Positions 14,286 through 43,614 of a stretch of 50,831 bases of DNA are shown here, one piece after another. The stretch is from a virus, in the UHGV virus genome UHGV-0144957; one strand, given 5' to 3'. How positions within the stretch are numbered: position 1 is the first letter of the stretch; every line of letters starts with the position of its first letter. The notes under the pieces are model-generated. The model saw only the letters and a list, made by a program, of their open reading frames with translations. It was not told the origin of the DNA and made no database searches. A program made the translations under genes and the position numbers.

Positions 14286-14325
14286 GCAGGAAACATCCCC
14301 ATGTGTGTGAGGAAGCTCCATTTCC

Positions 14326-16832: not shown

Positions 16833-17208
16833 GGCTGCGTGGGACCCACGCGTGGCCCCTGCGTGGGCCACGCACCATATATCTAACTGTAATGGTTGAT
16901 TATTTTTTTGGGGCGTAGGTCTTTACATTTTCCGCGTTTTGTGCTGTTCTTTTCCTACGGTGCTCATCACACCAACCATAGGCGGACAACGCCACCCGAC
17001 AGCATGGCGCTTTTTTGTGCCCTTTTTCCAAAGTCAAGAGTTTTTCTTGGCTGTCTTTTGGGCTATTATTGCATCCAATGTTTGCCGGGTGTGCCCGATA
17101 TGTCCAAGGCTTCGGCCTAAAGGCGGGCAGCCGCACCTATGGGCGGTGATGAACACCCGGCATCGTCATTCATCGGCGGTGTCAATCCTCTCACCATAGG
17201 AGTGGCAC

Positions 17209-18231: not shown

Positions 18232-20508
18232 ATGAGCAAGAAGCGCACTTATCGCCATGCTACCTCCATAGCCCCGCAAGCCGTGCCGCCGTCGCGCCGT
18301 CTGTCACTCTCCCCGGACGTGCGCGGCGGCCTTGCTCAACCCTTGCCGCCTACGCCCGACGACATCAGCCGGATGTACGGCCCTGCGAAGACGCTCGGCG
18401 CGCCCGAAGAGGTGCAGCTTGCGATGGATGCGCGGCTTGCGGATTCCGGCGTCTACTCCCTGCTTCAGCATTCTCTTGAGCTTGGGGTTGGGATTGCGCC
18501 GCAATTCATGGGCTACGGCGTCCTCCAGAACCTTGCACAGAACGGCCTGATCCGTGCCTGCGTCGAGACGGTATCCGACGACATGACCCGTGCATGGATT
18601 GAGTTCAAGCGCGAAGGGGAGGGCGGTGATGACGCTTTGCTTACTGACCTCGCACAGTCGTGCAAACGGTTCGCCCTGCAGCGCCTTTTCCATGAGGCCG
18701 TGGAGCTTGTAGGCTACGAAGGCGGCGCGTTCCTCTTCATCGATACCGGGGCCATCGGAAAAGAGCTGGAGCACCCGCTGAACATCAGCCCGTATTCCGC
18801 CGAACTCAGGCCCGGCGGCCTCCTGCGCTTCGTCGTCATCGACCCTGTGAACGTCTTCCCCGGCGACTACAACAGCCTTTCGCCGCTCGAACCGGACTAC
18901 TTCCGCCCCCGCTGGTGGTGGGTGCTTGGGCAGCGCGTGCATGCTTCCCGGCTCATCCGGCTGGTGGCGAACGAATGCCCGGTGCTGCTGCGGCCCGCAT
19001 ATAACTTTTTAGGCATCCCGCAGGCGCAGATACTTTGGGATTACGTGCTGCACTTTCAGGAGTGCCGCGCGGCGGAAGCCCGGCTGTTAACGAAGTTTTC
19101 GTTAACCGTCTTCAAGACGAAGATGGAAGACATCCTGTACGCGGCTGGAGGCACGGCGCAGCTTGATACCCGCATCCGGTACATGATCCAGTCCATGACG
19201 AACGACGGCGTGCTTGCCGTGGACAAGGAAACGGAAGAGGTGGTGAAGCTGGAAACGCCGCTTTCCGGCGTGACTGACATCGTGCGCCAGTCCCTTGAAA
19301 TCCTCGCCGCCCTGAACCGCACCCCGGCGGTCAAGCTGCTCGGCATCAGCCCGTCCGGGTTCAACGCCACGGGCGAATCGGATATCCGAAACTATTACGA
19401 CCACATCACGAGCCAACAGGAGAAAGTCCTGCGCGACGGCATCAAAAAGGCGCTCGACTGTATCCAGCTCCATTTGCGCGGAACCATCGACCCGTCCGTG
19501 ACGTTCAACTTCGCGCCCCTTGGCGAAGAAGACAGGGCGGCCCTTGCGACGCTCCAGAAGACCAAGGCCGACACCATCGCCGTCTACATGGATCGGGACA
19601 TCATCTCTCAGGAAGAGGCCCGGCAGTCCCTTGCCAGTGACCCGGACAGCGGCTTCTCCGACATAGACCCGGCGGAAGTGCCGCAGGGCAACGGAATGCC
19701 CGACGCCCTGCCGGAAGCCGGGGAAGGGGGCTTGATGCCCGACATCGACGATGTGGACAAGGCCGGGGCCGTCTACGACGCCGCGTGGGACGAGGATGTC
19801 TGGCGTACCGCCGAGAACGGGAAACGGTATCAGATCGACACTGAAACAGGCGAGATCAAGAAGGGGAATGTGAGGCAGCCCGTCGTCAACCGGGAATCAC
19901 GTCCCGTGGAGTCCTCCAAGCCGGACACGGCCCGTTATGAGGCCTTGGTGCGGGAGCACGGCGGTGACCACAAGAAGGCTGCGCATGCTTATTTCCGCGA
20001 AAAATTGCAGGGGCGGCATGTCACCGCGCAGACGGATAATGGGCCGATAGAGGCGTGTTTTACCGGGGCAAGTTGGAAGGAACTCAAAAAAGATATGGCT
20101 ATCGATCCGCTTAAGGCGGAGCTTGTTCCTCATTTGCCGGAAATCATCGCTACAGGGCGTTATGAATCCTCCACCCCGATGCATTTTCATCCCGACGTGT
20201 CCGTATTCCATTCATATACGAAAAGCGTTTCCACCTCGGAAGGTGAAAAGGAAGCCATTGTCGATATAGCGGAACGGCCCATGCGAGAACCCAAGCACCT
20301 TGTTTACAATCTCACACGGGAGGGGACTCGACCCTATACGGATCGAAGGCAAAAAGAATCGGCGCTTTCAGGAGCGATCCGTGGGCAAAACCACGGGAAC
20401 CTGAAAACGCCGACTCATGGCAGCGATGCTGCTTTTGAAAGAAATATAGCTCCTTTCTTCGAGGTTGTAAATATCCGTTTTGTTGGTGAAGGGGCCGCTG
20501 ATGCCTAA
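18232..20508 (+). CDS. portal protein with ~200-aa C-terminal extension domain
   Basis: 758 aa, located between terminase and the MuF-like gene. The N-terminal ~500 aa look portal-like. The C-terminal part (DNA ~19880-20508) is compositionally distinct. Confidence 0.65.
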   Translation: MSKKRTYRHATSIAPQAVPPSRRLSLSPDVRGGLAQPLPPTPDDISRMYGPAKTLGAPEEVQLAMDARLADSGVYSLLQHSLELGVGIAPQFMGYGVLQNLAQNGLIRACVETVSDDMTRAWIEFKREGEGGDDALLTDLAQSCKRFALQRLFHEAVELVGYEGGAFLFIDTGAIGKELEHPLNISPYSAELRPGGLLRFVVIDPVNVFPGDYNSLSPLEPDYFRPRWWWVLGQRVHASRLIRLVANECPVLLRPAYNFLGIPQAQILWDYVLHFQECRAAEARLLTKFSLTVFKTKMEDILYAAGGTAQLDTRIRYMIQSMTNDGVLAVDKETEEVVKLETPLSGVTDIVRQSLEILAALNRTPAVKLLGISPSGFNATGESDIRNYYDHITSQQEKVLRDGIKKALDCIQLHLRGTIDPSVTFNFAPLGEEDRAALATLQKTKADTIAVYMDRDIISQEEARQSLASDPDSGFSDIDPAEVPQGNGMPDALPEAGEGGLMPDIDDVDKAGAVYDAAWDEDVWRTAENGKRYQIDTETGEIKKGNVRQPVVNRESRPVESSKPDTARYEALVREHGGDHKKAAHAYFREKLQGRHVTAQTDNGPIEACFTGASWKELKKDMAIDPLKAELVPHLPEIIATGRYESSTPMHFHPDVSVFHSYTKSVSTSEGEKEAIVDIAERPMREPKHLVYNLTREGTRPYTDRRQKESALSGAIRGQNHGNLKTPTHGSDAAFERNIAPFFEVVNIRFVGEGAADA

Positions 20509-21286: not shown

Positions 21287-22999
21287 ATGCATCAAGGCAA
21301 AGGCGTCGCCTTCGACGCGGCCCCCTCGCAGCGGGCAACCGACGAGAACGGGTTCCTGCACGTCGGGGCGTCGCACATCACCAAAGCGGCGGTGAACCCC
21401 TACTACGGGAGGGAGGTTCCGGGCTGGCAGGAGGCCGGGCTTGACCCTGAGGCCGTCTACTACGGCCTGCGCGACCCGGAAGAACTTCAAGCATCGCTTG
21501 AGACATGGGCCGGGCTGCCGCTGCACATCGAGCACCATATCGACAGCGCGGAAGAACCGCAGAAGCTCACCCGCGTGGGAGCGGTGGGCACGGGCGCGGT
21601 CTGGAACCCGCCGTATGTGGATGCGCCGTTGACCGTGTGGGATCGGGCCGCCATCGACGCCATCGAAGATGGTTCCTTCCGGGAGCTTTCCTGCGCCTAC
21701 CGTTACGACCCGGATTTCACGCCGGGCAGCTACGAGGGCATCCCCTACGATTTCATCATGCGGAACATCCGCGGCAACCACGTCGCGTTGGTCGAGGAAG
21801 GGCGGGCCGGGCCGGACGTGGTGGTGGCGGATTCTCATCCAACTTCAACGAAAAAAGGAACGCTTATGGGCACGTTCAAGAAATGGTTCCGGGGCGCGCA
21901 AGACGACAACCCGGACATCGAAAAGCAGGAAGTGGAGCTTGCGCAGGCCATCATCGACCTGCACAAGGTCGACCCCGTGACAGGCGAAATCGTGGATGTC
22001 ACCGAAGACGAGGACAAGGCGGAGGAAATCCGCAAGCTCGTCGGTGAATTGTCCGCCAAGCTCGATCCTGAGGACGTCAAGAAGCTGACGGATTCCCTCT
22101 CCGATCTGGCCTACTCCAAGGCCACGGGCGACGGGAAAGCGGAGAAAAAGGACGCGCTGGACGAAGACGCCAGGAAAGCTATGGACGCCTGCGGGCTTGA
22201 TGCGGAAGACCCCGCCGAATCCCGTGCCTTTGCCGAAGGCGTGAAGTACGGCGAGAAACTGGAGCGTAACCCGGAAGAGCGCAGGAAGCTCGACCGCGAA
22301 CATGAGTCCGAGGGCATGAAAAAGGCTATGGATGCCTGCGGCCTCGACGCCGAGAACCCGCAGGAGAGCAAAGCCTTTGCCGAGGGCGTCAAGTACGGTG
22401 AGGAGTTGATCCGGGATCCTGATGAACGGCGCAAGCTCGACCGTGAGCATGAATCCGAAGGCGAACGCCGCGAGCTCGGCAAGGACGAGGACAAGGACGC
22501 GGCCATCAAGCGCATCCTCGCTGCCGTCCCCGGCCTCACGCCGGAACAGCAGAAGAAGCTGACCGACTCCCTGCAAGACCTCGCCTATTCCCCGGCGACC
22601 GGAGATGAAGACCCGGACGGCAAGGGAACCGCTCAGGACAGGGCATTCCGCCGCCGTGGGCCCCGCCCCCTCACCGCGATGGACGCCGCCCGCATCAAGG
22701 CATCCGCAGTCGCCGAAGCGCAGGAACATATGCGGAACCTCACCCGTGCCGTGCGCGACGTGCGCGGGCTGGTGGGCGAGCTTGACCCGTTGTCCTTCGA
22801 CTCCGCGTCCGACGTCTACGGCTACGCGCTGGAGCAGCTTGGGGAGGAGCCCCGCAAGTATCCCCGGCAGGCATGGCCCGGCATGATCGACATCCTCCGC
22901 AAGCAGAAGGCGGCCCCTTCCATCGCCCGCGACGCGGCCCCCGTCGGGCGCATGTCCGGCAGCTTCGCCGGGCTTTCCAACATCACCATTGCCGAATAG
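21287..22999 (+). CDS. prohead protease/scaffolding-like protein (DUF2213-type N-domain) with internal tandem repeats
   Basis: The N-domain contains ...[15 protein letters not shown]... The acidic C-terminal half has two ~49-aa tandem repeats (MDACGLDAE(D/N)P...[10 protein letters not shown]). Confidence 0.45.
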
Positions 23000-23658: not shown

Positions 23659-24672
23659 ATGAACCCGACATTTGAACAGGCCCGGCGCTACGGCTTCGTC
23701 TTCCCCCATGCGCGCATGTGGACCACGCCCGAAAACCGCGCCCGCATTGCGCAGGACGCCGCGCTCATCACCACGCCGAACACGACCGTCCCCGCCGAAC
23801 TGCTGGCGTATATCGACCCGATGGTCATCGAAATCCTGACCGCGCCCCGGCGCGCCCGTGAAATCTTCGGGGAAGAGAAAAAAGGCGACTGGACGACCCC
23901 GTACATGAAGTGGCGCGTGGACGAAATGACCGGGAAGACCGAGCCGTATTCCGACTATGCCAACGGCACGACTTCGGGCGTGAACTCCGAATGGCAGACC
24001 CGCGTGCAGTATGTCTTTCAGACGTCCATCACCTACGGCGACTTTGAAGTGGACATGTCGAGCACGGCGAAAGTCAACCTTGCGGCCTCCAAACAGCGCG
24101 CGGCGGCCAACGTCATCGACATCGACCAGAACCGTTTCTACCTGCTCGGCGTCGCCGGGAAGGAGATTTACGGCATCCTCAACGACCCGAACCTCCCCGC
24201 AGCCATCACCGCCGGGGCCACGGGAGAGGGCAGCTCCACGAAATGGGCCGACAAGACCACGGTGCAGATCTACAATGACGTCCTCGCCCTGTTCGCGCAG
24301 CTCTCCGAGCAGTCCAGCGGTCTTATCGACAAGGATACGCCGCTGAAGCTCTGCCTTTCCCCCGAACTGGCCGTGCGCCTCGGCGCGGCTACCGATTTCA
24401 ACGTGTCCGTGCTGGACATGCTGAAGCGGTACTTCAGCCGCATCGACATCGTGACCGTGCCCGAACTGCACAGCATGACCGCCGGGGAAACCATGTTCCT
24501 CATCGCTCCCGAGGTGAACGGGCAGCGCTCCGGAACGCTGGCCTTCGGCGAAAAGATGCGTGCGGGCCGCGTCGTGCCCGACCTGTCCAGCTTCCGCCAG
24601 AAGTTCGTCGGCACCACCTACGGCGGCATCGTGCTCATGCCCTTTGCGTTCGCGCAAATGACTGGCATGTAG
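23659..24672 (+). CDS. major capsid protein (Mu gpT-like)
   Basis: 337 aa, positioned after the scaffold/decoration genes, with capsid-like composition. Confidence 0.65.
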   Translation: MNPTFEQARRYGFVFPHARMWTTPENRARIAQDAALITTPNTTVPAELLAYIDPMVIEILTAPRRAREIFGEEKKGDWTTPYMKWRVDEMTGKTEPYSDYANGTTSGVNSEWQTRVQYVFQTSITYGDFEVDMSSTAKVNLAASKQRAAANVIDIDQNRFYLLGVAGKEIYGILNDPNLPAAITAGATGEGSSTKWADKTTVQIYNDVLALFAQLSEQSSGLIDKDTPLKLCLSPELAVRLGAATDFNVSVLDMLKRYFSRIDIVTVPELHSMTAGETMFLIAPEVNGQRSGTLAFGEKMRAGRVVPDLSSFRQKFVGTTYGGIVLMPFAFAQMTGM

Positions 24673-24749: not shown

Positions 24750-25016
24750 TCAGTAATGATAGCGGCATTGGAGTACGATCAGGGCTTCGCTCTTTTCGTC
24801 CAGCTTATAGACGAGCCGATCCTCCTGATTGATGCGTCGTGACCAGCATCCGGAAAGATCGAACCGGAGCGGTTCCGGCTTGCCTAGCCCTTCAAAAGGA
24901 TTCCGCATGGCATCGCGCAGCAATTCGTTGATCCGTTTGACCGTGCGCTTGTCCGCATGCTGCCAATAGAGGTAGTCCTCCCACGCCTGCGGCGTCCACG
25001 TAAGCAGCATGCTCAA
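24750..25016 (-). CDS. yoeB: YoeB-family toxin (RelE superfamily mRNA interferase)
   Basis: Near-colinear with E. coli YoeB: WTPQAWEDYLYWQ...DKRTVKRINELL...NPFEGLGKPEPL...SGCWSRRINQEDRLVY...LQCRYHY. Confidence 0.85.
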   Translation of the reverse strand: MSMLLTWTPQAWEDYLYWQHADKRTVKRINELLRDAMRNPFEGLGKPEPLRFDLSGCWSRRINQEDRLVYKLDEKSEALIVLQCRYHY

Positions 25017-25267
25017 TCCTCCAGCTCATGCGGCATGGCCTTGCCCGCATCGGCGGCCTGCATCGCTTCCCTGAGCCGTGCGGCGTTGGCGGGCGAACGG
25101 AGCAGATACGCCGTCTCCATGATGGCGTTATAATCCTCAAGCGACATCATGACCACAGAGGGCGATTTTTGCCGAGTAATGATGACCGGCTCATGGTGAT
25201 CGCAGACGCGGCTCATGGTTTCCGCAAGGTTCTGCCGGGCTTCGGAGTAGGTAATGGCCTGTGACAT
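25013..25267 (-). CDS. yefM: YefM-family antitoxin
   Basis: MSQAITYSEARQNLAETMSRVCDHHEPVIITRQ... Strong RBS AAGGAGG. 4-nt overlap with yoeB. Confidence 0.8.
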   Translation of the reverse strand: MSQAITYSEARQNLAETMSRVCDHHEPVIITRQKSPSVVMMSLEDYNAIMETAYLLRSPANAARLREAMQAADAGKAMPHELED

Positions 25268-25369
25268 GACGCCTCCTTTATTTTGTACAAAAATACGTAC
25301 AAACAAGGCAGGCGTCAAGAATAAAAGGCGGCTCCGAAGAACCGCCTTTTCTACCATATTCTTTTCTCG

Positions 25370-25825
25370 TTAGAATCCAATCCAGCCGAAGCCTTTGGCC
25401 ATGATCGCGGCAAGGGCAAAGGCTATGGCGAACTGCCATTTGAGCAGATCATATTTGACCTTTTCAACTTCGCCACGCACTTTTTCGATCTCAGTCCGTA
25501 AGCGGGCTTCGGTTTCCTTTACCTCGCCACGGACTTTTTCCGTCTCGCCACGGATCTTCTCGATTTCTACCGTCAACCGCGCTTCCGTTTCCTTCATTTC
25601 GGCACGGATTTTTTCAGTTTCCCCGCGAACCTTTTCCAGTTCGACTTGTAAGCGCAACTCGGTTTCGCGCAGGTCTTCTTTGGTCGCGGACTTATCCTCA
25701 CGCTTTTCCAGCACCTCTACAAGAGCGTCGAACTGCTCGGCAGTAAACGCTTTTTCCAGTTTTTTCCCGGTATCGAACAGCAACATGGGGGAATCCCTCC
25801 GTTGGTAAAGTCTTATATGATTCAT
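25370..25825 (-). CDS. DUF1640-like coiled-coil membrane-anchored protein
   Basis: Repeated TEKVRGEV(K/E)ETEARL heptad-like units plus a C-terminal TM helix LLKWQFAIAFALAAIMAKGFGWIGF. The encoding DNA contains matching tandem repeats. Confidence 0.45.
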   Translation of the reverse strand: MNHIRLYQRRDSPMLLFDTGKKLEKAFTAEQFDALVEVLEKREDKSATKEDLRETELRLQVELEKVRGETEKIRAEMKETEARLTVEIEKIRGETEKVRGEVKETEARLRTEIEKVRGEVEKVKYDLLKWQFAIAFALAAIMAKGFGWIGF

Positions 25826-25841: not shown

Positions 25842-26123
25842 TTACTCTAGCATCATCCTGTTCGAGGTCTTCGCGGCACGGATGGCAAGGTGCATGTCGT
25901 CAAGTGCGGATTCGAGGTTTTGCCGGGCGATGTAGGTCGGGGCGGTCATGAGCTGGACAAGCGCGTCAACGGGCGTATTCCCGGATAACGAGACGTACCG
26001 GAGCAGTTCGGGATACGTCCCCTGCGTCACCCGACGGAAGTCCCGTTCCAGCCCATAAGCCTGCTCGCGGATCAGGGCTGCAAGCTCAATCCATTCCTGC
26101 TCAAGCCGTTCAAGCGCCCTCAC
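25842..26123 (-). CDS. small helical hypothetical protein (93 aa) abutting the CRISPR array
   Basis: ORF track. It ends 18 bp from the trailer-end CRISPR repeat. A weak resemblance to HepT/HI0074-type helical proteins could not be supported by a motif. Confidence 0.4.
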   Translation of the reverse strand: MRALERLEQEWIELAALIREQAYGLERDFRRVTQGTYPELLRYVSLSGNTPVDALVQLMTAPTYIARQNLESALDDMHLAIRAAKTSNRMMLE

Positions 26124-26141
26124 GCGGTCGCGGTAGATAGG

Positions 26142-26388
26142 CTTCTAAGCCGCCTACACGGCGGATAATAGGACTCTTGTGGGCGTGCTTAATTTGTGAG
26201 ACTTCTAAGCCACCTACACGGCGGATAATTGGCTGCGCGAGCACGTCGATCCGTTGTTGGCTTTCTAAGCCGCCTACACGGCGGATAACTTCTGGTTGAG
26301 CTTCTAAGCCGCCTACACGGCGGATAATTTCCCCCTAAGAGTTGAGTTTGATGCCGGAAACTTCTAAGCCGCCTACACGGCGGATAAT
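26142..26388 (-). CRISPR. orphan CRISPR array, 5 repeats x 28 nt (type I-F-like), spacers 32/32/11/32 nt, no cas genes
   Basis: Repeats at 26142-169, 26202-229, 26262-289, 26301-328 and 26361-388 read CTTCTAAGCCGCCTACACGGCGGATAAT, with single-nt variants in the 2nd and 3rd. The reverse complement ATTATCCGCCGTGTAGGCGGCTTAGAAG matches the I-F consensus GTTCACTGCCGTATAGGCAGCTAAGAAA at 20/28 positions. It has the same 5-bp stem, 5-nt loop and CTTAGAAG handle. The AT-rich leader lies on the right (26389 onward), so the array is transcribed from the minus strand. Confidence 0.8.
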
Positions 26389-26597
26389 AAGAAATATTTG
26401 ATAACTCCTTTTTACTTTTTAGTGGGTTGCATCAACAGCCTTATCAAAACCTTCGTTTTCATGGCTACTTTACAACCACCTTATTTCAAAAGATTTTCCC
26501 AGACAACTTTTTATGAAGCTGGAAGAATCCATAAGAGAGTATGGGGAGTACCATTGCTGGCTGTGATAGGCTCTTTCATCAAGTAAAAGGATTGACA

Positions 26598-26685
26598 GAA
26601 ACACCCCACGTGCGTGGGGAAGACTTGGCTCCGGTGGAATTGACGTTGAGTGTCGGGGAAACACCCCCACGTACGTGGGGAAGAC
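26598..26685. CRISPR. putative 2-repeat mini-array (27/28-nt palindromic repeats, one 33-nt spacer)
   Basis: GAAACACCCCACGTGCGTGGGGAAGAC (26598-624) and GAAACACCCCCACGTACGTGGGGAAGAC (26658-685) are separated by 33 nt. The reverse complement GTCTTCCCCACGCACGTGGGGTGTTTC is reminiscent of I-E-type repeats. The mini-array shares the AT-rich region 26389-26597 with the larger array. Confidence 0.4.
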
Positions 26686-26726: not shown

Positions 26727-26747
26727 TCATTGGAAAAGCCCCGTTCA
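26727..26747 (-). terminator. terminator hairpin downstream of gene 26769-27380
   Basis: AGCCCCG-TTCAGGG-CGGGGCT stem-loop, with a T-run on the minus strand. Confidence 0.4.
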
Positions 26748-26768
26748 GGGCGGGGCTTTAAAAAGATT

Positions 26769-27380
26769 CTACCGTAACAAGCTGCAGTCGTCGGCTACCA
26801 CATTACCCAGTGCCATACCTTTAACCGTACACATGAGGGAAACTTTCCCACCTTTTCTTAAAGACGCGGCAGAATCCGTTTGCCCGCGTTCCAAATCGGC
26901 AAAAATATTTTCCAAGAAGCCTGTCCCTTCGAGGGTCAATCTTGCCAGCCCGGTAACGGATTTGGATATATCAGTTACTGTTCCAGTAATAATAATCTCT
27001 TTTCCTTTATATTTTTGGTCAGCGGCAATCTCGTTGGACTTGTACTCACGGACGAGCTGGACAGACGTGATCCGAGGCATTTTTGCTATTTTCTCCTGCT
27101 CGGCTGCGGCTCGCTCAGCTTGTTTACGCAGTTTATACTCTTCATTGGCAGCTTCAATACGGGCTTTCTCTTCTGGAGTTTGCGTTACCGCCTTGAATGC
27201 TCCAATAGCGAAGAAGATAAGGAAAATATAGCCTATCCATTTGATAATTTTTTTCCCGAATATCCCTGATGAACTCCCTTTTTTTCTGTCAGCATCAGTT
27301 ACAGGACGCCCGCATTTAGGGCAAGCCGCTGCGGAAGTCGAAACTTTGGATTTGCAATCCGGGCATTTGAAGGTAGCCAT
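26769..27380 (-). CDS. zinc-ribbon + TM + OB-fold (tRNA_anti-like) domain protein
   Basis: N-terminal CPDCKSK...CPKCGRP ribbon. TM helix IIKWIGYIFLIFFAIGAF. A coiled linker. C-terminal OB-fold-like region (GKEIIITGTVTDISKS...). The gene sits on an AT-rich island. Confidence 0.5.
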   Translation of the reverse strand: MATFKCPDCKSKVSTSAAACPKCGRPVTDADRKKGSSSGIFGKKIIKWIGYIFLIFFAIGAFKAVTQTPEEKARIEAANEEYKLRKQAERAAAEQEKIAKMPRITSVQLVREYKSNEIAADQKYKGKEIIITGTVTDISKSVTGLARLTLEGTGFLENIFADLERGQTDSAASLRKGGKVSLMCTVKGMALGNVVADDCSLLR

Positions 27381-28068: not shown

Positions 28069-28857
28069 ATGGAAAATTCCCCCTTGGCTTTTTTTGAGCA
28101 TGAAAAGTTCGGTTCTCTTCGTGTCGTCAGAAGGGAGCAGGGCGAACCGTGGTTCATGGCGAAAGACGTATGTGGATGTCTCGGTCTGGATACCAGTAAC
28201 CTTTCAAAAATGCTGGATGAAGACGAGCTTTCGACCTGCCCCGTACAGTATACGGATCAGGTCAGGAATCTTTCCGTTGTTTCCGAACCCGGCCTGTATT
28301 CCCTCATCCTCCGTTCCCGCAAGCACGAAGCCAAGGCGTTCAAGCGGTGGGTGACGCACGAGGTCATCCCCTCCATCCGCAAGACGGGCGGGTATCTGGC
28401 AACGAAACCCGACGATACCCCCGAAGCCATCCTTGCCCACGCCGTGCTGGTCGCGCAGGACACCATCAGGCGCATTGAAGCCGAACGCGACGATGCGATC
28501 CGCACCAAGGCCGAAATCAGTTCACGCCGCGAGGCCACCGCAATGGCGACCGCATCCGCCGCCGTCCGCAAGGCTGCGGCTCTTGAGAACGAGCTTGGGC
28601 GGGGCAGGGACTACAAGTCCGTGAAGGGCATCCCGTGGTTCCTTGACGTCTTTGCGGATACGCCAGCCGCGTACTCCGTCGCGGGACGCAAGCTCTCCGA
28701 TATGTCCCGCCGTATGGATTACGAGATCCGGGAGATCGAGGACAGCCGTTTCGGGAGCGTGAAGGCGTACCACGTCGACGTGATTGAAGCCTTCCGGCTG
28801 GCCCTGAAAAACGACCTGAACATGCTGGGCAAGTACCGCCTTCGCCGGGCGGCATAG
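28069..28857 (+). CDS. phage antirepressor, Bro-N domain + KilA-C-like (second copy)
   Basis: LAFFEHEKFGSLRVVRREQGEPWFMAKDVCGCLGL is a Bro-N domain. The C-terminal half is alignable with the gene at 4120-4893 (…VIPSIRKTGGY…PDDTPE…ILAHAVLVAQ…). Confidence 0.8.
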   Translation: MENSPLAFFEHEKFGSLRVVRREQGEPWFMAKDVCGCLGLDTSNLSKMLDEDELSTCPVQYTDQVRNLSVVSEPGLYSLILRSRKHEAKAFKRWVTHEVIPSIRKTGGYLATKPDDTPEAILAHAVLVAQDTIRRIEAERDDAIRTKAEISSRREATAMATASAAVRKAAALENELGRGRDYKSVKGIPWFLDVFADTPAAYSVAGRKLSDMSRRMDYEIREIEDSRFGSVKAYHVDVIEAFRLALKNDLNMLGKYRLRRAA

Positions 28858-31257: not shown

Positions 31258-32763
31258 ATGAGCGTCAATGCCGACAAACTAGTCCAAATCATCCCCCGCA
31301 TCATCGAAGGCGGCACGCCGGGCCTGACCTTCGCCGGGCTCCTGCTCTCGCAGTCCGAGCTTTTGCCCGCAGGCCGGGTTGTGCAGTTCGCCAGTGCGCA
31401 GGCCGTGGTGAATTATTTCGGATCGCTCTCGGAAGAGGCGGGCATGGCTTCCATGTACTTTTCCGGCTACGTGAACACGACGAGCCTCCCGGACAAGATC
31501 TTCTTTGCCCGGTACAACGGCGATGCCGTGGGCGCATGGCTGCGCGGCGCGAAGTACACGGGCAATCTCGCCGTGTTGCAGGCAGTGACCAACGGCGCGA
31601 TGGTTATTTCCATCGACAACACGCCGTACACGCTTTCCTCCGTGGATTTGTCCGCCGCAACGAGCTTTTCGCAGGTGGCGGAGAAGCTCCAGACCGCGCT
31701 CACGACGGCGGGCGCGACCGGGGCGAAGGTGGCCTACTCCAGCCAGACCGGGGCCTTCCAGATCGACAGCCCGACGACCGGGACAAGTTCCGCCGTGGCC
31801 TTCCCGACGCCGCCGGAATCCGGGACCGACCTCGGCGCGCTTTTGCTGCTCACCGAGCAGGCCGGGGCCGTGCAGTCCGTGGGCATGGCCGCTCAGACGC
31901 TTCCCGACTGCATGACCAACGTGCTCCTGTACGCCCGCGATTGGGTGACGTTCGGGACTGTCTGGGAGCCTGAGCTTGACGACAAAATTTCACTTGCCCG
32001 GTGGTGCGCGGGGTATGACACCCGTTTCGCCTACGTGATGTGGGATACCGACAACGCCGCGCAGGTCGCGGGCTCTACGGCCTCGGCGGGGTATCAGATC
32101 GCCAAGGTGCTCGAACTCGACGGGACGGTTCCCGTGTTCAACACGCCTGAGCTTGCGGCGTGGGTCATGGGCACGGCTGCCTCCATCAACTTTGAAGAGA
32201 CGAACGGACGGCTCACCTTCGCGTTCAAGCAGGGCGAAGGGCTTGCCGTAACCTGCGACAACGACGAGAACTATGACGCGCTGATCGCCAACGGCTACAA
32301 CTGCTATGCGGACTTCGCCACGGCCTCCAGCCAGTTCAAGTTTTTCCAGAACGGGCAGGTTTCCGGCAAATGGGGCTGGCTCGACACCTACCTTGACGCC
32401 ATCGCCATCAAGGACGGCCTCCAGCTGAACCTCCTTGATCTGTTCAAGGCCGTAAAGTGCATCCCGTATAACGAGAGCGGCTACGGCATGATCCGCACGG
32501 CCTGCCTCGACACCATCACCCGTTTCCTCGACTTCGGGGCCATCCGCACCGGAGTGACCCTCTCGAACACCCAAAAAGTGCAGCTTCTTGCTGAAATCGG
32601 GCAGGACGTTTCCCAGACGCTTGAAACGCAGGGCTGGTACATGCAGGTCAAGGACCCCGGCGCGACCGTGCGCGGACAGCGCCAATCCCCGGAATGCAAA
32701 TTCTATTACATGGACGGCGGCAGCGTGCAGCAAATCGTCATGCCCGCCACGGCCATTCAGTGA
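31258..32763 (+). CDS. contractile tail sheath protein
   Basis: 501 aa, directly upstream of the tube and chaperone genes. RBS ACAGGAGGG. Confidence 0.6.
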   Translation: MSVNADKLVQIIPRIIEGGTPGLTFAGLLLSQSELLPAGRVVQFASAQAVVNYFGSLSEEAGMASMYFSGYVNTTSLPDKIFFARYNGDAVGAWLRGAKYTGNLAVLQAVTNGAMVISIDNTPYTLSSVDLSAATSFSQVAEKLQTALTTAGATGAKVAYSSQTGAFQIDSPTTGTSSAVAFPTPPESGTDLGALLLLTEQAGAVQSVGMAAQTLPDCMTNVLLYARDWVTFGTVWEPELDDKISLARWCAGYDTRFAYVMWDTDNAAQVAGSTASAGYQIAKVLELDGTVPVFNTPELAAWVMGTAASINFEETNGRLTFAFKQGEGLAVTCDNDENYDALIANGYNCYADFATASSQFKFFQNGQVSGKWGWLDTYLDAIAIKDGLQLNLLDLFKAVKCIPYNESGYGMIRTACLDTITRFLDFGAIRTGVTLSNTQKVQLLAEIGQDVSQTLETQGWYMQVKDPGATVRGQRQSPECKFYYMDGGSVQQIVMPATAIQ

Positions 32764-33239: not shown

Positions 33240-33737
33240 ATGCTCAACGAAAAGATCATTGCCATCGACAAGGGCCGGGACGCCGGGAAGACCTTCAAGG
33301 TCAAGGAAATGCCCGTCACGAAACTGGAAAAATGGGCCGCCCGCGTGCTGCTCGCCGTCTTCGGTTCCGAGATGCCCGCCGACATCCGGGCGCTCTCCGC
33401 GTCATCGAACACAGCCGCGCTGCTTTCCGCAGGACTCCGGGGGCTGTCCGGGCTGAAGTGGGAACAGGCCGAACCGCTCTATGACGAGCTCCTCGGACAG
33501 ATCTACCGCGTCCCGAACCCCGGAAAGCCCGATGACGTCATCAGGCTCACCCCGCAAAACCTCGACGCGCATATTGAGGACGTAGGCACGATCTACCGCC
33601 TGCGCTGGGAGGCCATCGCCGTCTGTCTGGATTTTTTGCAGGGCGGCGAGGGCTTGACCTCCCGCCTGTCGCAGATCCTCAACCTCTCGGACTCCGGGAC
33701 TACGCAAACCTCCCCGGATGCGTCGGTATCCCGGTAA
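33240..33737 (+). CDS. tail assembly chaperone (G-like); a -1 frameshift at 33632-33638 would give an extended G-T-like product ending at 33865
   Basis: GGAGG 5 nt before ATG 33240. The slippery heptamer T_TTT_TTG lies in the 0 frame. The -1 frame is open from 33578 to 33865 and encodes a plausible peptide (...LHEMQTVYGLSDAYELMEIIAVDGHNQRLWSKHDRR). Confidence 0.5.
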   Translation: MLNEKIIAIDKGRDAGKTFKVKEMPVTKLEKWAARVLLAVFGSEMPADIRALSASSNTAALLSAGLRGLSGLKWEQAEPLYDELLGQIYRVPNPGKPDDVIRLTPQNLDAHIEDVGTIYRLRWEAIAVCLDFLQGGEGLTSRLSQILNLSDSGTTQTSPDASVSR

Positions 33738-33851
33738 GCCGGAACCTCGCGACGCTGCACGAAATGCAGACCGTGTATGGCCTGTCCGATGCCTACGAAC
33801 TGATGGAAATTATTGCCGTGGACGGACATAACCAACGTCTCTGGAGCAAAC

Positions 33852-35516
33852 ATGACCGCCGGTGAACTTGTCGTTTCTCTCATCCTCTCCGTAGGAGATT
33901 TTAAAGCGCAGGTGCAGGCCGCACAAAAGGGGCTGGACGGCGTGCAGGCCGCAGCCGTTGACGCGGGGCGCGACATAGCGGACGCCGCAAAAAGAGGAGG
34001 ACGCGGCCTTGATAATCTTGGCTCGGCTGCACGTTCTGCCGGAAAGGAACTCGAAGAGGCAGGGAATCGGGGCGCACTCAGTTTTGAAAATCTTAAGGGA
34101 ACACTTACGAAAGTTTTTGGAGTGATCGGCGGTGTTGCCTTCATCAAAAGCCAGCTCACAGAGTTTACCGACGCAGCTCTTGAAGTCGATACGGCGAGCA
34201 AGACTTTGGGGATGGACATCAAAGAGTTCCAAGGCTGGCAAAAAGCGGCGGAGAAAGTCGGGCTTGAGACGCAAGATCTGGTGCAGCTTTTCGGTGACGT
34301 CAGCGACCGGATGTATGATGCTGTCCTGCATGATGCAGGCCCGTTCAAAGACGCCGTCGAGGATATTGGGATTTCACTCAAGGGTGTCAAAGAAGGGGCC
34401 ACTTCTTCCGCGGATATGCTTTTACGTTTTGCAAAAGCTGTAGAAAAGATGCCGATGGACAAAGCCCACGGCCTTCTCACTCAGTACGGCTTCGATCCTG
34501 AGAGCATCAAGCTCATCATGATGGGGGAAAAAGAGCTTGAAAAGCTGATCAAAACGGGAAAGGAGAAGGCCCGTTTTGATCAGCAAGATATTGAGAACGC
34601 GAAAAAGTTATGGGAAGCGCAGCAGAGGCTTACTGCCGCTTGGCGCACCCTCTCTACTCTTTTTGTAAGTACAGTCTCCCCTGCGGTTACATTTTTAACT
34701 AACTTGTTTAGTGATCTCCTTGGGTGGGTGAAAGAAAACAAGCAGTTCGTGATCATCTTTTTCACAGCACTGGCTGGGGTCATCACTGGGCTTATGCTCC
34801 CGGCCTTAACCGCGATGGCAACGGCTGCATGGGCTGCAATTGCACCTTTTACACCGCTAATTGCAATCATCGGTGCCATCGGACTAGTTGTCGAAGATCT
34901 TATTACTTATATCCAAGGTGGAGAATCTGAACTTTCAAATTTGTGGTCAGTATTTGGATCTGGTGAAGAAATAGGGGAACAATTCAAATCATTATGGGAA
35001 GGTATAAAAAGTGTTCTTGAGAGTATCTGGGAGGCACTGAAAACCATTTCCAAGGTTTTCATACTCATCTTTTCGTTGACCGGGGAAGGGGTTATCGCGG
35101 CAATCGAAGGAATTTGGAAAGGTGTCACCAAGCTTTATGATACGCTTAGATCGATGCTGAATTGGGTAGCCCAAAAGCTCTACAATTTGCTTCCCGACTG
35201 GATCAAGGACTGGCTCGGCGGCGATGAGTCTTCACGACCGGAAGAAACGAAGGCCGAGGCCGCGCCCGGAGGCGTTGCCGATTCGATGCGGGTTGGTGAT
35301 GTCCGTCCGTCAATTCTGCCGCCGCAGGTGCGCGCCGGGGATGCGCGTCCGGGAAGTGTGAGCAACGTCAACAATTCTCGTCAAATGACGTCAACCACCA
35401 ACGTAGGTGAGGTCAAAATTTACACGCAGGCTACGGATGCTGAGGGAATAGCCGAAGGAGTGGTTCCGGCACTTCGCAATCAGACCGCGCAGGCAGACAG
35501 CGCATTCGGGTACTGA
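33852..35516 (+). CDS. tail tape measure protein
   Basis: Long alpha-helical protein with a central block of hydrophobic helices. GGAG-6-ATG at 33852, internal to the track ORF 33813. Confidence 0.75.
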   Translation: MTAGELVVSLILSVGDFKAQVQAAQKGLDGVQAAAVDAGRDIADAAKRGGRGLDNLGSAARSAGKELEEAGNRGALSFENLKGTLTKVFGVIGGVAFIKSQLTEFTDAALEVDTASKTLGMDIKEFQGWQKAAEKVGLETQDLVQLFGDVSDRMYDAVLHDAGPFKDAVEDIGISLKGVKEGATSSADMLLRFAKAVEKMPMDKAHGLLTQYGFDPESIKLIMMGEKELEKLIKTGKEKARFDQQDIENAKKLWEAQQRLTAAWRTLSTLFVSTVSPAVTFLTNLFSDLLGWVKENKQFVIIFFTALAGVITGLMLPALTAMATAAWAAIAPFTPLIAIIGAIGLVVEDLITYIQGGESELSNLWSVFGSGEEIGEQFKSLWEGIKSVLESIWEALKTISKVFILIFSLTGEGVIAAIEGIWKGVTKLYDTLRSMLNWVAQKLYNLLPDWIKDWLGGDESSRPEETKAEAAPGGVADSMRVGDVRPSILPPQVRAGDARPGSVSNVNNSRQMTSTTNVGEVKIYTQATDAEGIAEGVVPALRNQTAQADSAFGY

Positions 35517-43383: not shown

Positions 43384-43614
43384 ATGCCCTTGCCAATGCC
43401 CGAAGAAGAGGAAAACTTGCGCTGCCCGCACGGTGAACGCTACCAAGCCTTAATGCTGTGCTCTCTGGACTGTGCAACAAGTGGTGCCCACCCAGACAGA
43501 AAAACAAAGGCCGATGGGCGGTTCATCATCACGCCGTGGTGGTGTCTGCACAAATGCAAATGGCTGCCTGAGCACAGAGACGAGATCAGGTTTGTGGTGA
43601 AAAAGCCTGAGTGA
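43384..43614 (+). CDS. cysteine-rich hypothetical protein (76 aa)
   Basis: Strong RBS AAAAGGAGAGAAGCT-ATG. Last gene before the terminator and att region. Confidence 0.45.
   Translation: MPLPMPEEEENLRCPHGERYQALMLCSLDCATSGAHPDRKTKADGRFIITPWWCLHKCKWLPEHRDEIRFVVKKPE

What the first reader, a model, noticed from the sequence alone, without database searches (positions are those of the whole stretch)
26142..26388. Cas-less, type I-F-like CRISPR array carried inside a phage structural-gene island
Five 28-nt repeats with 32-nt spacers sit between the capsid gene and the head-tail genes. One spacer is truncated to 11 nt. The repeat, read on the minus strand, is ATTATCCGCCGTGTAGGCGGCTTAGAAG. It has the same 5-bp stem, 5-nt loop and 8-nt handle as the classical I-F (Cas6f) repeat GTTCACTGCCGTATAGGCAGCTAAGAAA. 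I could find no cas gene anywhere in the 50.8 kb window. A virus-borne array like this, relying on host Cas proteins to target competing phages or mobile elements, is rare and worth following up. The spacers are direct candidates for protospacer hunting.
Basis: partly seen in the sequence, partly recalled or inferred. Interest (0 to 1): 0.85.

Follow-up and report, generated by a model that had tools for sequence, protein, structure and literature searches.

The report
Phage-borne Cas-less CRISPR arrays in Bilophila
A temperate phage of the human-gut bacterium Bilophila carries two CRISPR arrays (type I-F and type I-E) but no cas genes; it most likely uses its host's Cas proteins against rival phages, which is a clean new example of a phenomenon already known.

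Summary
Five 28-nt repeats lie at 26142-26388 on the minus strand, with spacers of 32, 11, 32 and 32 nt. They fold like canonical I-F repeats. They differ by 1-3 nt from repeats flanking complete I-F cas operons in Bilophila, including isolate 4_1_30. A roughly 135-nt leader is homologous to the cas1-adjacent leader there.

The window is a complete, circular 50.8-kb temperate myovirus with no cas genes.

The leader-proximal spacer matches a divergent related phage 32/32, with the I-F 5'-CC PAM.

Near-identical copies of this phage from other samples differ only at the leader end of the array. One lacks that spacer, one carries a different spacer, and one has lost the array. This is the pattern expected from ongoing adaptation.

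It is a two-repeat type I-E mini-array at 26598-26685, which has gained three spacers in one relative. Cas-adjacent I-E arrays with the same repeat hold spacers against about 40 sites in this phage.

Best explanation: prophage-supplied crRNAs loaded onto host Cas complexes exclude competing phages. Interference itself was not shown.

This is a new member of a known kind (virus-borne mini-arrays; C. difficile prophage arrays). Interest is moderate.

The parts
26142..26388 (-). Type I-F CRISPR array with 5 repeats and 4 spacers (one of them an 11-nt stub), transcribed right to left in window coordinates.
   Evidence: The repeat is within 1-3 nt of the repeats next to Bilophila I-F cas operons.
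26361..26388 (-). I-F repeat R1, leader-proximal: ATTATCCGCCGTGTAGGCGGCTTAGAAG.
26329..26360 (-). Spacer S1, the newest: TTTCCGGCATCAAACTCAACTCTTAGGGGGAA.
   Evidence: It matches L036 (IMGVR_UViG_3300045988_148079) at 2013-2044 in 32/32 positions. The match is preceded by 5'-CC and has no repeats beside it. S1 is absent from L168, which is otherwise 100% identical, and is replaced by a different spacer in L164.
26301..26328 (-). I-F repeat R2.
26290..26300 (-). 11-nt spacer stub CTCAACCAGAA. It is too short to guide interference, and its origin and role are unexplained.
   Evidence: It is conserved in L163, L164, L166, L167 and L168. In L162 it has been removed, apparently by repeat-repeat recombination. 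Its only other match, an exact 11-mer in related phages, is at chance level and lacks a CC PAM.
26262..26289 (-). I-F repeat R3: GTTATCCGCCGTGTAGGCGGCTTAGAAA. It gives the best Rfam score of the five.
   Evidence: (34.7 bits).
26230..26261 (-). Spacer S3: GCCAACAACGGATCGACGTGCTCGCGCAGCCA. Its target is unknown.
   Evidence: It is shared by all relatives that have the array. No hit in IMG/VR, INPHARED or PLSDB.
26202..26229 (-). I-F repeat R4. One stem position is changed to a G.U pair.
26170..26201 (-). Spacer S4, the oldest: TCTCACAAATTAAGCACGCCCACAAGAGTCCT. Its target is unknown.
26142..26169 (-). I-F repeat R5, at the trailer end. It lies 18 nt upstream of the start of the 93-aa ORF.
26389..26525 (-). 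I-F leader, about 135 nt and AT-rich. It contains conserved blocks such as GGCTTCATAAAAAAGTTGTC and AATAAGGTnGTT.
   Evidence: Alignment A1. The leader is conserved across 16 other loci, including the leader between cas1 and the array in the Bilophila I-F locus L039. A promoter within it is inferred only; the consensus scan found none.
26598..26685 (-). Type I-E mini-array, not part of the original finding. It consists of repeat GTCTTCCCCACGTACGTGGGGGTGTTTC (26658-26685), a 33-nt spacer CCCGACACTCAACGTCAATTCCACCGGAGCCAA (26625-26657), and a terminal repeat with a 1-nt G deletion (26598-26624).
   Evidence: The same repeat forms large arrays next to cas1e, cas5e and cas7e and next to a full I-E operon. 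In L162 the array has 3 extra spacers at the leader-proximal end. The original spacer is invariant in all 10 relatives.
26738..26756 (-). GC-rich hairpin followed by a T-run on the minus strand (GCCCCG-CCCTGAA-CGGGGC-TTTT). It is probably the terminator of the Sie-like gene, and it lies about 50 nt upstream of the I-E mini-array.
   Evidence: Read directly from the sequence. The scan did not call it.
26769..27380 (-). 203-aa protein with a zinc ribbon and a tRNA_anti-like (OB) domain; PHROG annotation 'superinfection exclusion Sie-like'. It is the island gene upstream of the arrays.
25842..26123 (-). 93-aa ORF immediately downstream of the array. It resembles the C-terminal part of pRha/Ant-type anti-repressors.
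   Evidence: Searches found no family. tblastx links it to the L039 pRha gene and to window 17848-18126.
25370..25825 (-). Coiled-coil protein of 151 aa (138 aa as called in other contigs). Island gene.
24750..25357 (-). Phd/YefM antitoxin (25013-25357) and RelE/YoeB toxin (24750-25016). The pair is 88% nt identical to the toxin-antitoxin pair that flanks the Bilophila I-F CRISPR-Cas locus.

Best explanation
The window is the complete genome of a temperate myovirus of Bilophila, a human-gut member of the Desulfovibrionaceae. A low-GC accessory-gene ('moron') island on the minus strand, between the head and tail modules, holds two CRISPR arrays without cas genes. One is a one-spacer type I-E mini-array. 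It is followed by a type I-F leader and a five-repeat I-F array.

Proposed mechanism, with each step marked as shown or inferred:
(a) In a lysogen the arrays are transcribed leftward. This is inferred.
(b) Host Cas6f, and Cas6e for the I-E unit, cut at the base of each repeat hairpin. This is inferred from the near-identity of the repeats to host repeats and from their canonical folds.
(c) The crRNAs load into host Csy/Cascade complexes and direct Cas2/3 or Cas3 against incoming DNA that carries the protospacer and PAM. The perfect S1 protospacer with a CC PAM in a rival phage is shown. Interference itself is inferred.
(d) The host Cas1 machinery adds new spacers at the leader end of the phage-borne arrays. 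This is shown by comparative data: near-identical genomes differ by exactly one leader-proximal unit.

The net effect would be CRISPR-based heterotypic superinfection exclusion that travels with the phage and can be updated.
For: Phage identity and absence of cas genes. The genome is circular and complete: the window is 100% identical to ERZ505327 NODE_678_length_50908, and the 77-nt length difference equals a typical assembler k-mer overlap.

I-F identity: the fold, the near-threshold Rfam CRISPR-DR4 hits, and repeats within 1-3 nt of this one flanking full I-F operons in Bilophila sp. 4_1_30 (GCA_000224655.1) and in ENA contigs. The leader is homologous to the cas1-adjacent leader.

Targeting: S1 matches L036 in 32/32 positions with 5'-CC and no flanking repeats. 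L036 is the head module of a related phage at roughly 50% amino-acid identity. The orthologous site in the window has diverged, and no spacer matches the window itself better than 21/32.

A network of the same kind: phage-borne arrays with this repeat in 16 IMG/VR contigs carry 1-14 mostly unique spacers. Several of these spacers hit this window (32/32 at 9353-9384; 30/32 at 18589-18620; 29/32 at 33679-33710; and others), and 5 of 6 hits carry a CC PAM.

Turnover at the leader end: L168 is 100% identical in its flanks but lacks S1. L164 has a different first spacer. L162 has three extra leader-proximal I-E spacers. L165 has lost the array.

Host systems are active against this phage. Forty protospacers in the window are matched by I-E spacers from arrays next to cas1e, cas5e and cas7e, and 28 of the 40 have AA at positions -2 and -1. 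A cas-adjacent I-F spacer in Bilophila sp. 4_1_30 matches window 37077-37104.
Against: No expression, processing or interference data exist; everything rests on sequence.

Only one of the three full I-F spacers has a target. The I-E spacer has none in IMG/VR, INPHARED or PLSDB.

No sigma-70 consensus promoter was found in the leader.

The 11-nt unit cannot guide interference and is conserved. The I-E spacer is invariant in 10 relatives. Both facts would also fit a decoy or regulatory role.

The Rfam hits are below the gathering score.

Four of the five repeats begin with A rather than the G of host repeats. The effect of this on Cas6f or Csy loading is unknown.

The I-E-bearing host is identified only indirectly. 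The nearest named Cas5e homologues are Mailhella and other Desulfovibrionaceae at 67% identity or less.
Confidence: 0.78

Rival explanations
1. Anti-CRISPR RNA decoy or regulator (Racr- or Cracr-like). In this reading the repeat units mainly soak up host Cas6 and Cas7, or redirect Cascade/Csy onto the host's own cas promoter, and so protect this heavily targeted phage. They would not be directed against rival phages. This could apply to the whole locus or only to the 11-nt I-F unit and the invariant I-E unit.
For: The host I-E and I-F systems carry many spacers against this phage, so counter-defence would pay. The 11-nt unit is conserved across relatives, and the I-E spacer is identical in all 10. 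The terminal I-E repeat has a 1-nt deletion; the published I-E Cracr array also has a repeat with a 1-nt deletion, though there it lies in the hairpin loop. Related phage L037 carries truncated I-F and I-E hairpins fused together without handles. Racr and Cracr elements, including multi-spacer 'Cracr arrays', are documented in phages (PMC10651486; bioRxiv 10.1101/2024.10.29.618823).
Against: Spacers are of canonical length (32 or 33 nt), apart from the one stub. S1 has a perfect PAM-flanked protospacer in a rival phage. Both arrays gain canonical spacers at the leader end. No window spacer has a PAM-plus-seed match anywhere in the Bilophila I-F cas loci L039-L041. Racrs are defined as solitary repeats, whereas these are arrayed.
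Confidence: 0.14
2. Inert passenger. The phage picked up a fragment of a host CRISPR locus (array, leader and neighbouring toxin-antitoxin genes) by illegitimate or homologous recombination. The fragment persists without a selected function.
For: The island is syntenic with the left flank of the Bilophila I-F locus: the YoeB/Phd pair is 88% nt identical, followed by a pRha-like gene, then a minus-strand array with its leader. The terminal I-E repeat carries the same 1-nt deletion as the terminal repeat of a chromosomal I-E array (L117). One close relative has simply lost the I-F array (L165). GC content drops to 0.49-0.53 across the island.
Against: Arrays with intact leaders are kept in many diverged phages of this group and at several genomic positions. 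Repeats remain foldable and spacers keep turning over at the leader end, with PAM-correct targets in related phages. That pattern is not expected of decaying junk.
Confidence: 0.06
3. Artefact: a chimeric assembly that joins a chromosomal CRISPR array to a phage contig, or a structured repeat that is not CRISPR.
For: CRISPR repeats are a known cause of metagenome misassembly. The Rfam scores are below the gathering threshold.
Against: The same junctions on both sides of the arrays are found, at 98-100% identity, in contigs from at least 10 different samples and two assembly collections, ENA and Logan. Spacers vary while the flanks stay constant. The repeat is linked to cas operons elsewhere.
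Confidence: 0.02

Closest known systems
Virus-borne mini-CRISPR arrays (Faure et al. 2019 survey, cited from the review PMC11656645; Sulfolobales portogloboviruses SPV1/SPV2, Medvedeva et al. 2019, PMC6858448)
   Same: There are no cas genes in the virus. Repeats and leader resemble the host's. Spacers target related viruses but not the carrier, because the orthologous site in the carrier has diverged. Spacer content differs between close relatives. The proposed function is heterotypic superinfection exclusion using host Cas proteins.
   Different: This host is bacterial and the phage is a tailed temperate phage. The I-F array has 4 spacers, and related phages have up to 14, so it exceeds the '1-2 spacer' definition. 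PMC6858448 states that the bacteriophage mini-arrays known at that time lack leaders; this one has a leader homologous to the cas1-adjacent leader. Two arrays of different subtypes (I-E and I-F) sit in tandem.
Cas-less type I-B CRISPR arrays in Clostridioides difficile prophages (Hargreaves et al. 2014, PMC4173771; Boudry et al. 2015, PMC4556805)
   Same: Multi-spacer arrays lie inside temperate phages of a human-gut bacterium and rely on the chromosomal cas operon. Their spacers target other phages of the same host. Toxin-antitoxin genes lie next to the arrays (PMC5961336, title only).
   Different: The subtype differs (I-B versus I-F plus I-E), as do the phylum and the phage lineage. In C. 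difficile, expression and interference have been shown experimentally; here they have not.
Racr solitary repeat units (Camara-Wilpert et al. 2023, PMC10651486) and Cracr arrays (Liu et al., bioRxiv 10.1101/2024.10.29.618823)
   Same: These are phage-encoded repeat mimics of types I-F and I-E, without cas genes, that engage host Cas6 and Cas7. Some are arranged as small arrays, and some have shortened spacer-like segments.
   Different: Racrs have no spacer. Cracr spacers are complementary to host cas or creT promoters. Here the spacers are full length, one targets a phage, the arrays acquire new spacers, and no match to the I-F cas loci was found. Only the 11-nt unit resembles such elements in form.
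Vibrio phage ICP1 type I-F CRISPR-Cas (from my own knowledge; phage-encoded complete CRISPR systems are mentioned in general terms in PMC11656645)
   Same: Type I-F repeats on a phage, with new spacers acquired at the leader end.
   Different: ICP1 is lytic, encodes its own full set of Cas proteins, and targets a host defence island. This phage is temperate, has no cas genes, and targets another phage.

Membership tests
CRISPR array (generic) | Three or more near-identical direct repeats of 23-47 nt, separated by unique spacers of uniform length | tested here: met
   Five 28-nt repeats with 2 or fewer mismatches. Spacers are 32, 32 and 32 nt plus one 11-nt stub, and all differ from each other.
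CRISPR array (generic) | Spacer content varies between related genomes, with gains at the leader end and shared spacers at the trailer end | tested here: met
   The window, L168, L164 and L162 share S3 and S4 but differ at the leader end, while their flanks are 98-100% identical.
CRISPR array (generic) | Spacers match foreign DNA next to a consistent PAM | tested here: inconclusive
   S1 matches 32/32 with 5'-CC. S3, S4 and the I-E spacer have no match.
Type I-F repeat class | A 28-nt repeat with a 5-bp stem, 5-nt loop and 8-nt 3' handle (the Cas6f substrate architecture), and 32-nt spacers | tested here: met
   The dot-bracket structure is identical to that of the canonical I-F repeat. Spacers are 32 nt.
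Type I-F repeat class | Reaches the Rfam CRISPR-DR4 (RF01317) gathering score | tested here: not met
   Best score is 34.7 bits against a threshold of 35; the others are 28.2 (three copies) and 20.6. All are full-length alignments on the minus strand. This is a near miss; subtype membership rests on the cas linkage below.
Type I-F repeat class | The same repeat lies adjacent to a type I-F cas operon (cas1, cas2/3, csy1-3, cas6f) in some genome | tested here: met
   L039, L040, L176-L179 and Bilophila sp. 4_1_30 have GTTATCCGCCG[A/T/G]GTAGGCGG[T/C]TTAGAAG next to the full operon. Desulfovibrio sp. MES5 has Cas6f and Cas1f next to a 38-repeat array.
Type I-F repeat class | 5'-CC PAM upstream of the protospacer on the strand identical to the crRNA | tested here: met
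   S1 has CC. Of 6 protospacers in the window hit by phage-borne arrays with the same repeat, 5 have CC.
Virus-borne mini-CRISPR array | Located in a bona fide viral genome that lacks cas genes | tested here: met
   All the expected phage modules are present: terminase, portal, protease, major capsid protein, sheath, tape measure, baseplate, integrase, CI-like repressor and primase-helicase. No Cas homologues were found.
Virus-borne mini-CRISPR array | Repeats identical or nearly identical to those of the host's CRISPR-Cas system | tested here: met
   The I-F repeats differ by 1-3 nt from those of the Bilophila I-F locus. The first I-E repeat differs by 1-2 loop positions from the cas-adjacent I-E repeat; the terminal repeat matches the CAC-loop consensus apart from a 1-nt deletion.
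Virus-borne mini-CRISPR array | Only 1-2 spacers | tested here: not met
   The I-F array has 4 spacer slots, 3 of them full length. The adjacent I-E unit, with 1 spacer, does meet the criterion.
Virus-borne mini-CRISPR array | Spacers target related viruses but not the carrier | tested here: met
   S1 targets L036, a related head module at roughly 50% amino-acid identity. There is no self match above 21/32. The other spacers have no known target.
Virus-borne mini-CRISPR array | Host-Cas-dependent exclusion of the targeted virus | not testable with these tools
   This needs infection or interference assays in Bilophila.
Racr (RNA anti-CRISPR, solitary repeat unit) | A solitary repeat with no neighbouring repeat within about 100 bp and no spacer | tested here: not met
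   The repeats are arrayed at 60-61-nt periods. A weak solitary I-E-like 28-mer at 14290-14317 (21/28) was noticed but not substantiated.
Cracr (viral crRNA-like regulator) | A spacer-like segment with at least 9 PAM-proximal bp matching a host cas or creT promoter or a host CreR/CreA element | tested here: inconclusive
   No CC-plus-8-nt seed match of any I-F spacer was found in L025 or L039-L041. The promoter region of the relevant I-E operon could not be retrieved, because the contigs were too short.

The most novel reading that the evidence does not exclude
This phage group may carry adaptation-competent arrays for two different CRISPR subtypes (I-E and I-F) in tandem, each with its own leader-end growth. 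The phage arrays, rather than the small chromosomal I-F arrays, may then be the main site where Bilophila's I-F system records new spacers. In support, the chromosomal I-F arrays are identical in three of the four I-F cas contigs retrieved from different samples (the fourth retains only a two-repeat left array), while the phage-borne arrays differ. On this reading the prophages have effectively taken over the host's CRISPR memory as a mobile, heritable weapon against one another. The shared toxin-antitoxin, array and leader flank would then reflect exchange between the host cas locus and the phages. The 11-nt unit and the fused handle-less hairpins in L037 could be a second, decoy-type use of the same repeats.
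Probability: 0.25. Interest if true: 0.7.

Novelty: new member of a known kind. Interest (0 to 1): 0.5.

Why it matters
Bilophila wadsworthia is a bile-tolerant, sulfite-reducing gut bacterium that can cause disease, and its phages are almost unstudied.

This locus shows that its temperate phages fight each other with the host's own CRISPR machinery. It also provides natural before-and-after genomes for a single spacer acquisition into a Cas-less, phage-borne array. PMC6858448 noted that the bacteriophage mini-arrays then known lack leaders, and suggested they gain spacers by recombination rather than by canonical adaptation. This case argues otherwise.

The locus gives concrete reagents: a repeat, a leader, a spacer-protospacer-PAM triplet, and an isolate (Bilophila sp. 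4_1_30) with the matching I-F operon. With these one could test CRISPR-based superinfection exclusion in a gut anaerobe. One could also ask why a phage that is heavily targeted by I-E and I-F systems keeps arrays for both.

For virome annotation there is a practical point. CRISPR-spacer host prediction and 'host array' calls can be confounded by arrays that travel on phages.

Tried and rejected
Searches and tests that led nowhere:
- Megablast of 24 kb of the window against INPHARED phages: no match. No annotated relative exists.
- Rfam at gathering threshold: only a tRNA. The CRISPR-DR4 hits appear only in E-value mode. No Rfam family hit the I-E repeat.
- Exact or every-6th-position-wildcard scans of IMG/VR for S3, S4, the I-E spacer and the alternative first spacer of L164: no hits.
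- blastn of all spacers against INPHARED and PLSDB: nothing, apart from one spurious hit at E = 0.5.
- Consensus promoter scan of the island: nothing in either leader.
- Cracr test: no PAM-plus-seed matches of the window spacers in the I-F cas loci. A 17/20 match of the I-E spacer to the start of cas1e in an unrelated I-E locus (L103) was rejected, because the cas1e genes next to arrays that target this phage do not share it.
- Attempt to retrieve the promoter region of the relevant I-E operon through Cas5e homologues: only short contigs without cas3 or cse1 came back.

Ideas considered and rejected or left open:
- That the IMG/VR and genome hits with the identical repeat were chromosomal host arrays. 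Rejected: their flanks are phage genes (early-region homologues, Bro-N/Ant, Dit), and no cas genes were seen.
- The 11-nt stub as the remnant of a spacer against L022-type phages. The exact 11-mer match is at chance level and has an AC rather than a CC PAM.
- The I-E-like 28-mer at 14290-14317 (21/28) as a solitary repeat unit. Its stem is imperfect and there was no Rfam hit, so it remains unsubstantiated.
Full report
**1. The observation**

The + strand holds five copies of a 28-nt unit at 26142-26169, 26202-26229, 26262-26289, 26301-26328 and 26361-26388. Start-to-start spacings are 60, 60, 39 and 60 nt. No further copy with 7 or fewer mismatches occurs anywhere in the window.

Read on the minus strand, the unit is ATTATCCGCCGTGTAGGCGGCTTAGAAG. 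It folds into 5 nt, a 5-bp stem, a 5-nt loop and 8 nt, the same structure as the canonical I-F repeat. The single stem substitution, in the copy at 26202-26229, is a G.U pair. Rfam's I-F repeat model CRISPR-DR4 aligns end to end with all five copies on the minus strand. The scores fall just under its gathering score: 34.7, 28.2 (three copies) and 20.6 bits against 35.

**2. What the window is**

PHROG and Pfam scans give a standard temperate tailed-phage layout:
- CI-like S24 repressor (6401-7030, -), CII-like protein, primase-helicase (9744-11564), RusA and an M15 endolysin.
- Large terminase (15357-16832), portal (18232-20508), head morphogenesis protein, protease/scaffold (21287-22999), minor head or cement protein, and major head protein (23659-24672).
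- Neck proteins, sheath (31258-32763), tube-region proteins, tape measure (33813-35516), baseplate and tail fibres.
- Integrase (43850-44911, -), then minus-strand early genes: a DNA methyltransferase, Gam, SSB and Erf.

The window is 100% identical to part of ENA contig ERZ505327 NODE_678_length_50908. That contig is 77 nt longer than the window, the size of a terminal k-mer overlap, so the window is probably a complete circular assembly (the last step is inference).

tblastn with the six I-F Cas proteins of a Bilophila locus, and with seven I-E Cas proteins, found nothing significant in the window. The genome is Cas-less.

**3. The island**

Between the major head gene and the neck genes, GC content falls from 0.60-0.65 to 0.49-0.53 and the coding strand flips. 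Read on the minus strand from right to left, the island contains:
- a zinc-ribbon/OB-fold 'Sie-like' gene (26769-27380) and its terminator hairpin (26738-26756);
- a second, previously unnoticed array (26598-26685);
- about 70 nt of unassigned sequence;
- a roughly 135-nt AT-rich leader (26389-26525);
- the five-repeat array (26142-26388);
- a 93-aa ORF resembling the C-terminus of pRha/Ant proteins;
- a coiled-coil protein;
- a Phd/YefM-RelE/YoeB toxin-antitoxin pair (24750-25357).

**4. The second array**

At 26658-26685 and 26598-26624 the minus strand reads GTCTTCCCCACGTACGTGGGGGTGTTTC and GTCTTCCCCACGCACGTGGGG-TGTTTC. These two repeats are separated by a 33-nt spacer. Both fold into a 6-7-bp stem with a 4-nt loop.

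The same 28-mer, GTCTTCCCCACGCA[C/T]GTGGGGGTGTTTC, occurs in more than 120 metagenome contigs as arrays of up to 87 repeats with a 61-nt period. One such locus, L104, has a complete type I-E operon: Cas3, Cse1, Cse2, Cas6e, Cas7e, Cas5e and Cas1 by Pfam. This is therefore a type I-E mini-array.

**5. Host, and compatible Cas systems**

The 22-nt core of the I-F repeat occurs in 16 IMG/VR contigs and 19 species-representative genome contigs. The near-exact 28-mer, which differs only at the first base (G instead of A), is restricted among the genomes to Bilophila wadsworthia ATCC 49260 and two 'uncultured Desulfovibrio' gut MAGs.

A related array in Desulfovibrio sp. MES5 lies next to Cas6f and Cas1f. 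Homologues of that Cas6f include clusters named as Bilophila sp. 4_1_30 (WP_009368460.1) and Bilophila sp..

Contigs encoding these proteins include the isolate scaffold GCA_000224655.1 JH114233.1. They carry cas2/3-csy1-csy2-csy3-cas6f-cas1, flanked by arrays of GTTATCCGCCG[A/T/G]GTAGGCGG[T/C]TTAGAAG and GTTGTCCGCCGTGTAGGCGGTTTAGAAG. These repeats are 1-3 nt away from the phage repeat, with the differences at position 1, position 4, the loop and position 21.

The phage leader aligns with the leaders of the other phage-borne arrays and with the leader between cas1 and the array in the Bilophila locus. Several blocks are invariant (alignment A1).

A compatible I-F system therefore exists in the host lineage.

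**6. Spacers vary, and vary at the leader end**

Looking up the exact Sie-like protein returned the same island in contigs from ten samples. The results:
- L163 (the window's own contig), L166 and L167 have the same array as the window.
- L168 is 100% identical in its flanks but lacks exactly the leader-proximal repeat-spacer unit (S1).
- L164, at 98.2% identity, has a different leader-proximal spacer in the same slot.
- L162 lacks S1 and the 11-nt unit. Its first repeat is a hybrid, consistent with repeat-repeat recombination. Its I-E mini-array carries three additional spacers at the leader-proximal end.
- L165 has a clean deletion of window 26137-26463, which removes the I-F array and about half of its leader.
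- S3 and S4, at the trailer end, are shared by every relative that has the array.

This polarity is what Cas1-mediated adaptation produces.

**7. Targets**

S1 (TTTCCGGCATCAAACTCAACTCTTAGGGGGAA) has one hit in IMG/VR, at L036 positions 2013-2044. The match is 32/32, has no repeats nearby, and is immediately preceded by 5'-CC on the strand identical to the spacer. 5'-CC is the established I-F PAM (own knowledge).

L036 encodes a portal, head morphogenesis, protease, minor head and major head module that is about 50% identical in amino-acid sequence to the window's. The protospacer spans the protease/minor-head junction. The orthologous junction in the window has diverged, and no window spacer matches the window elsewhere better than 21/32.

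S3, S4 and the I-E spacer gave no hit in IMG/VR, INPHARED or PLSDB.

One weak lead exists. A chromosomal I-E spacer in L156 overlaps the 5' part of the window's I-E spacer at 18/21 positions (p about 0.02 for the roughly 1 Mb loaded). This hints at a common mobile-element target.

**8. The wider pattern**

The 16 IMG/VR loci, and the loci with the exact repeat in Bilophila genomes, are phage contexts. Their flanks are homologous to the window's early region (45-47.5 kb) or to Bro-N/Ant and Dit genes, and none shows cas genes.

They hold 1-14 spacers, almost all unique. Their spacers hit this window:
- 32/32 at 9353-9384
- 30/32 at 18589-18620
- 29/32 at 33679-33710
- 30/32 at 339-370
- 27/32 at 13298-13329
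- 27/32 at 32572-32603

Five of these six protospacers are preceded by CC. I-E arrays on other Bilophila prophages (L038), and a hybrid mini-array (L037), likewise hit other phage contigs of the set. The phages of this host are aiming Cas-less arrays at each other.

In parallel, I-E arrays that sit next to cas1e, cas5e and cas7e carry spacers to 40 distinct sites in this window, and 28 of the 40 have AA at positions -2 and -1. A cas-adjacent I-F spacer of Bilophila sp. 4_1_30 matches window 37077-37104.

**9. Mechanism**

The best-supported reading is prophage-encoded crRNAs that use host Cas proteins for superinfection exclusion of rival phages, with the arrays updated by the host adaptation machinery.

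Shown here: repeat and leader identity with host systems; the absence of cas genes; a perfect PAM-flanked target in a rival phage; the absence of self-targeting; and leader-end turnover in both arrays.

Inferred: transcription; Cas6f and Cas6e processing; loading into Csy or Cascade; and interference.

A promoter in the leader is only suggested by the conserved TTGTC...TAAGGT blocks. The consensus scan found none.

**10. Rivals**

*An anti-CRISPR decoy or regulator (Racr or Cracr)* is a serious alternative for parts of the locus. The phage is heavily targeted, the 11-nt unit cannot guide cleavage yet is conserved, the I-E spacer is invariant, and published viral Cracr arrays look superficially similar. 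Against it as the main function: the spacers are of canonical length, S1 has a phage target, both arrays gain new spacers, and there are no seed matches to the I-F cas loci. For the I-E operon promoter the test could not be run. The two roles are not mutually exclusive.

*A passive captured fragment* is suggested by the synteny with the left flank of the Bilophila I-F locus: the toxin-antitoxin pair at 88% nt identity, a pRha-like gene, and a minus-strand array with its leader. It is also suggested by a terminal I-E repeat identical to a chromosomal terminal repeat. This speaks to the origin of the locus, not to a lack of function.

*Misassembly* is excluded by the recurrence of both junctions in independent assemblies.

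**11. Comparison with known systems, and novelty**

Virus-borne mini-arrays with host-like repeats that target related viruses are established (review PMC11656645; SPV1/SPV2, PMC6858448). This locus is a new member of that kind.

Its distinguishing points are:
- a bona fide leader shared with the cas locus, whereas PMC6858448 notes that the bacteriophage mini-arrays then known lack leaders;
- direct comparative evidence for leader-end acquisition in a Cas-less phage array;
- tandem arrays of two subtypes;
- a host, Bilophila, for which I found no phage or CRISPR literature in the library.

I rate interest at 0.5. The case is solid, well documented and experimentally tractable, but it is not conceptually new.

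Noticed in passing
window 26598-26685 (-): A type I-E mini-array (2 repeats, one 33-nt spacer) lies directly upstream of the I-F leader. The spacer is invariant in 10 relatives, but in one relative (L162) the array has gained 3 spacers at the leader-proximal end.
   Followed up: yes
L037 1985-2110 (-): A related phage contig has an I-F repeat, a 32-nt spacer, a truncated 20-nt I-F hairpin without its 3' handle, and then, fused directly to it, a truncated 22-nt I-E hairpin, just upstream of an ORF. Its spacer hits another phage contig (L015 6462-6493, 31/32). The handle-less hairpins could be decoys or minimal processing sites.
   Followed up: partly
L177 (Bilophila sp. 4_1_30, GCA_000224655.1 JH114233.1:122730-143323); also L039, L176, L178, L179: The Bilophila I-F CRISPR-Cas locus is embedded in phage-like DNA. 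To its left are YoeB/Phd, ASCH, pRha and HTH genes, with the toxin-antitoxin pair 88% nt identical to window 24883-25306. To its right are an HSDR_N protein and a tape-measure protein of 1569-1838 aa, or a Mu-like prophage in L178. The cas operon may itself lie on a prophage or prophage remnant.
   Followed up: partly
L176, L177, L179 compared with L001-L016: The chromosomal I-F arrays (8 and 3 repeats) are identical in three of the four I-F cas contigs retrieved from different samples (the fourth, L178, retains only a two-repeat left array), whereas the phage-borne I-F arrays differ widely. Visible I-F adaptation may occur mainly in the phage arrays. The sample is small.
   Followed up: no
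L040 4809-5373: In another Bilophila-type contig, cas1 is followed by a single I-F repeat and then by a homologue (78% amino-acid identity) of window 43384-43614, the last gene before the integrase/att region. Chromosomal nitrate-reductase genes follow.
   Followed up: no
window 14290-14317 (-): A solitary 28-mer matches the I-E repeat at 21/28 positions (about 0.004 expected by chance in the window). It lies in the intergenic region upstream of the ORFs that precede the large terminase gene. The stem is imperfect and there was no Rfam hit. It could be a degenerate solitary repeat unit or a coincidence.
   Followed up: partly
window 9312-9397: A tandem 11-mer repeat (AGGGCCAGCAG, 7.6 copies) lies inside ORF 8989-9762. 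It is the exact 32/32 target of a spacer in another phage-borne I-F array (L013 spacer 2), with a CC PAM.
   Followed up: partly
window 5841-6002 (-): The phage has two adjacent tRNA genes. One is tRNA-Met (CAT; Rfam 69.8 bits). ARAGORN could not assign an anticodon identity to the other.
   Followed up: no
window 17209-18138, 28069-28857 and 4120-4893: The phage has three separate Bro-N/Ant-type anti-repressor genes. In related phages the arrays often lie next to such genes, and window 16915-17217 is homologous to array-adjacent sequence in L005, L006 and L015.
   Followed up: no
L117 (trailer end of a chromosomal I-E array) compared with window 26598-26624: The terminal repeat of a cas1e-adjacent I-E array has the same 1-nt G deletion as the phage's terminal I-E repeat. 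This suggests the phage unit was captured from the trailer end of a host array.
   Followed up: no
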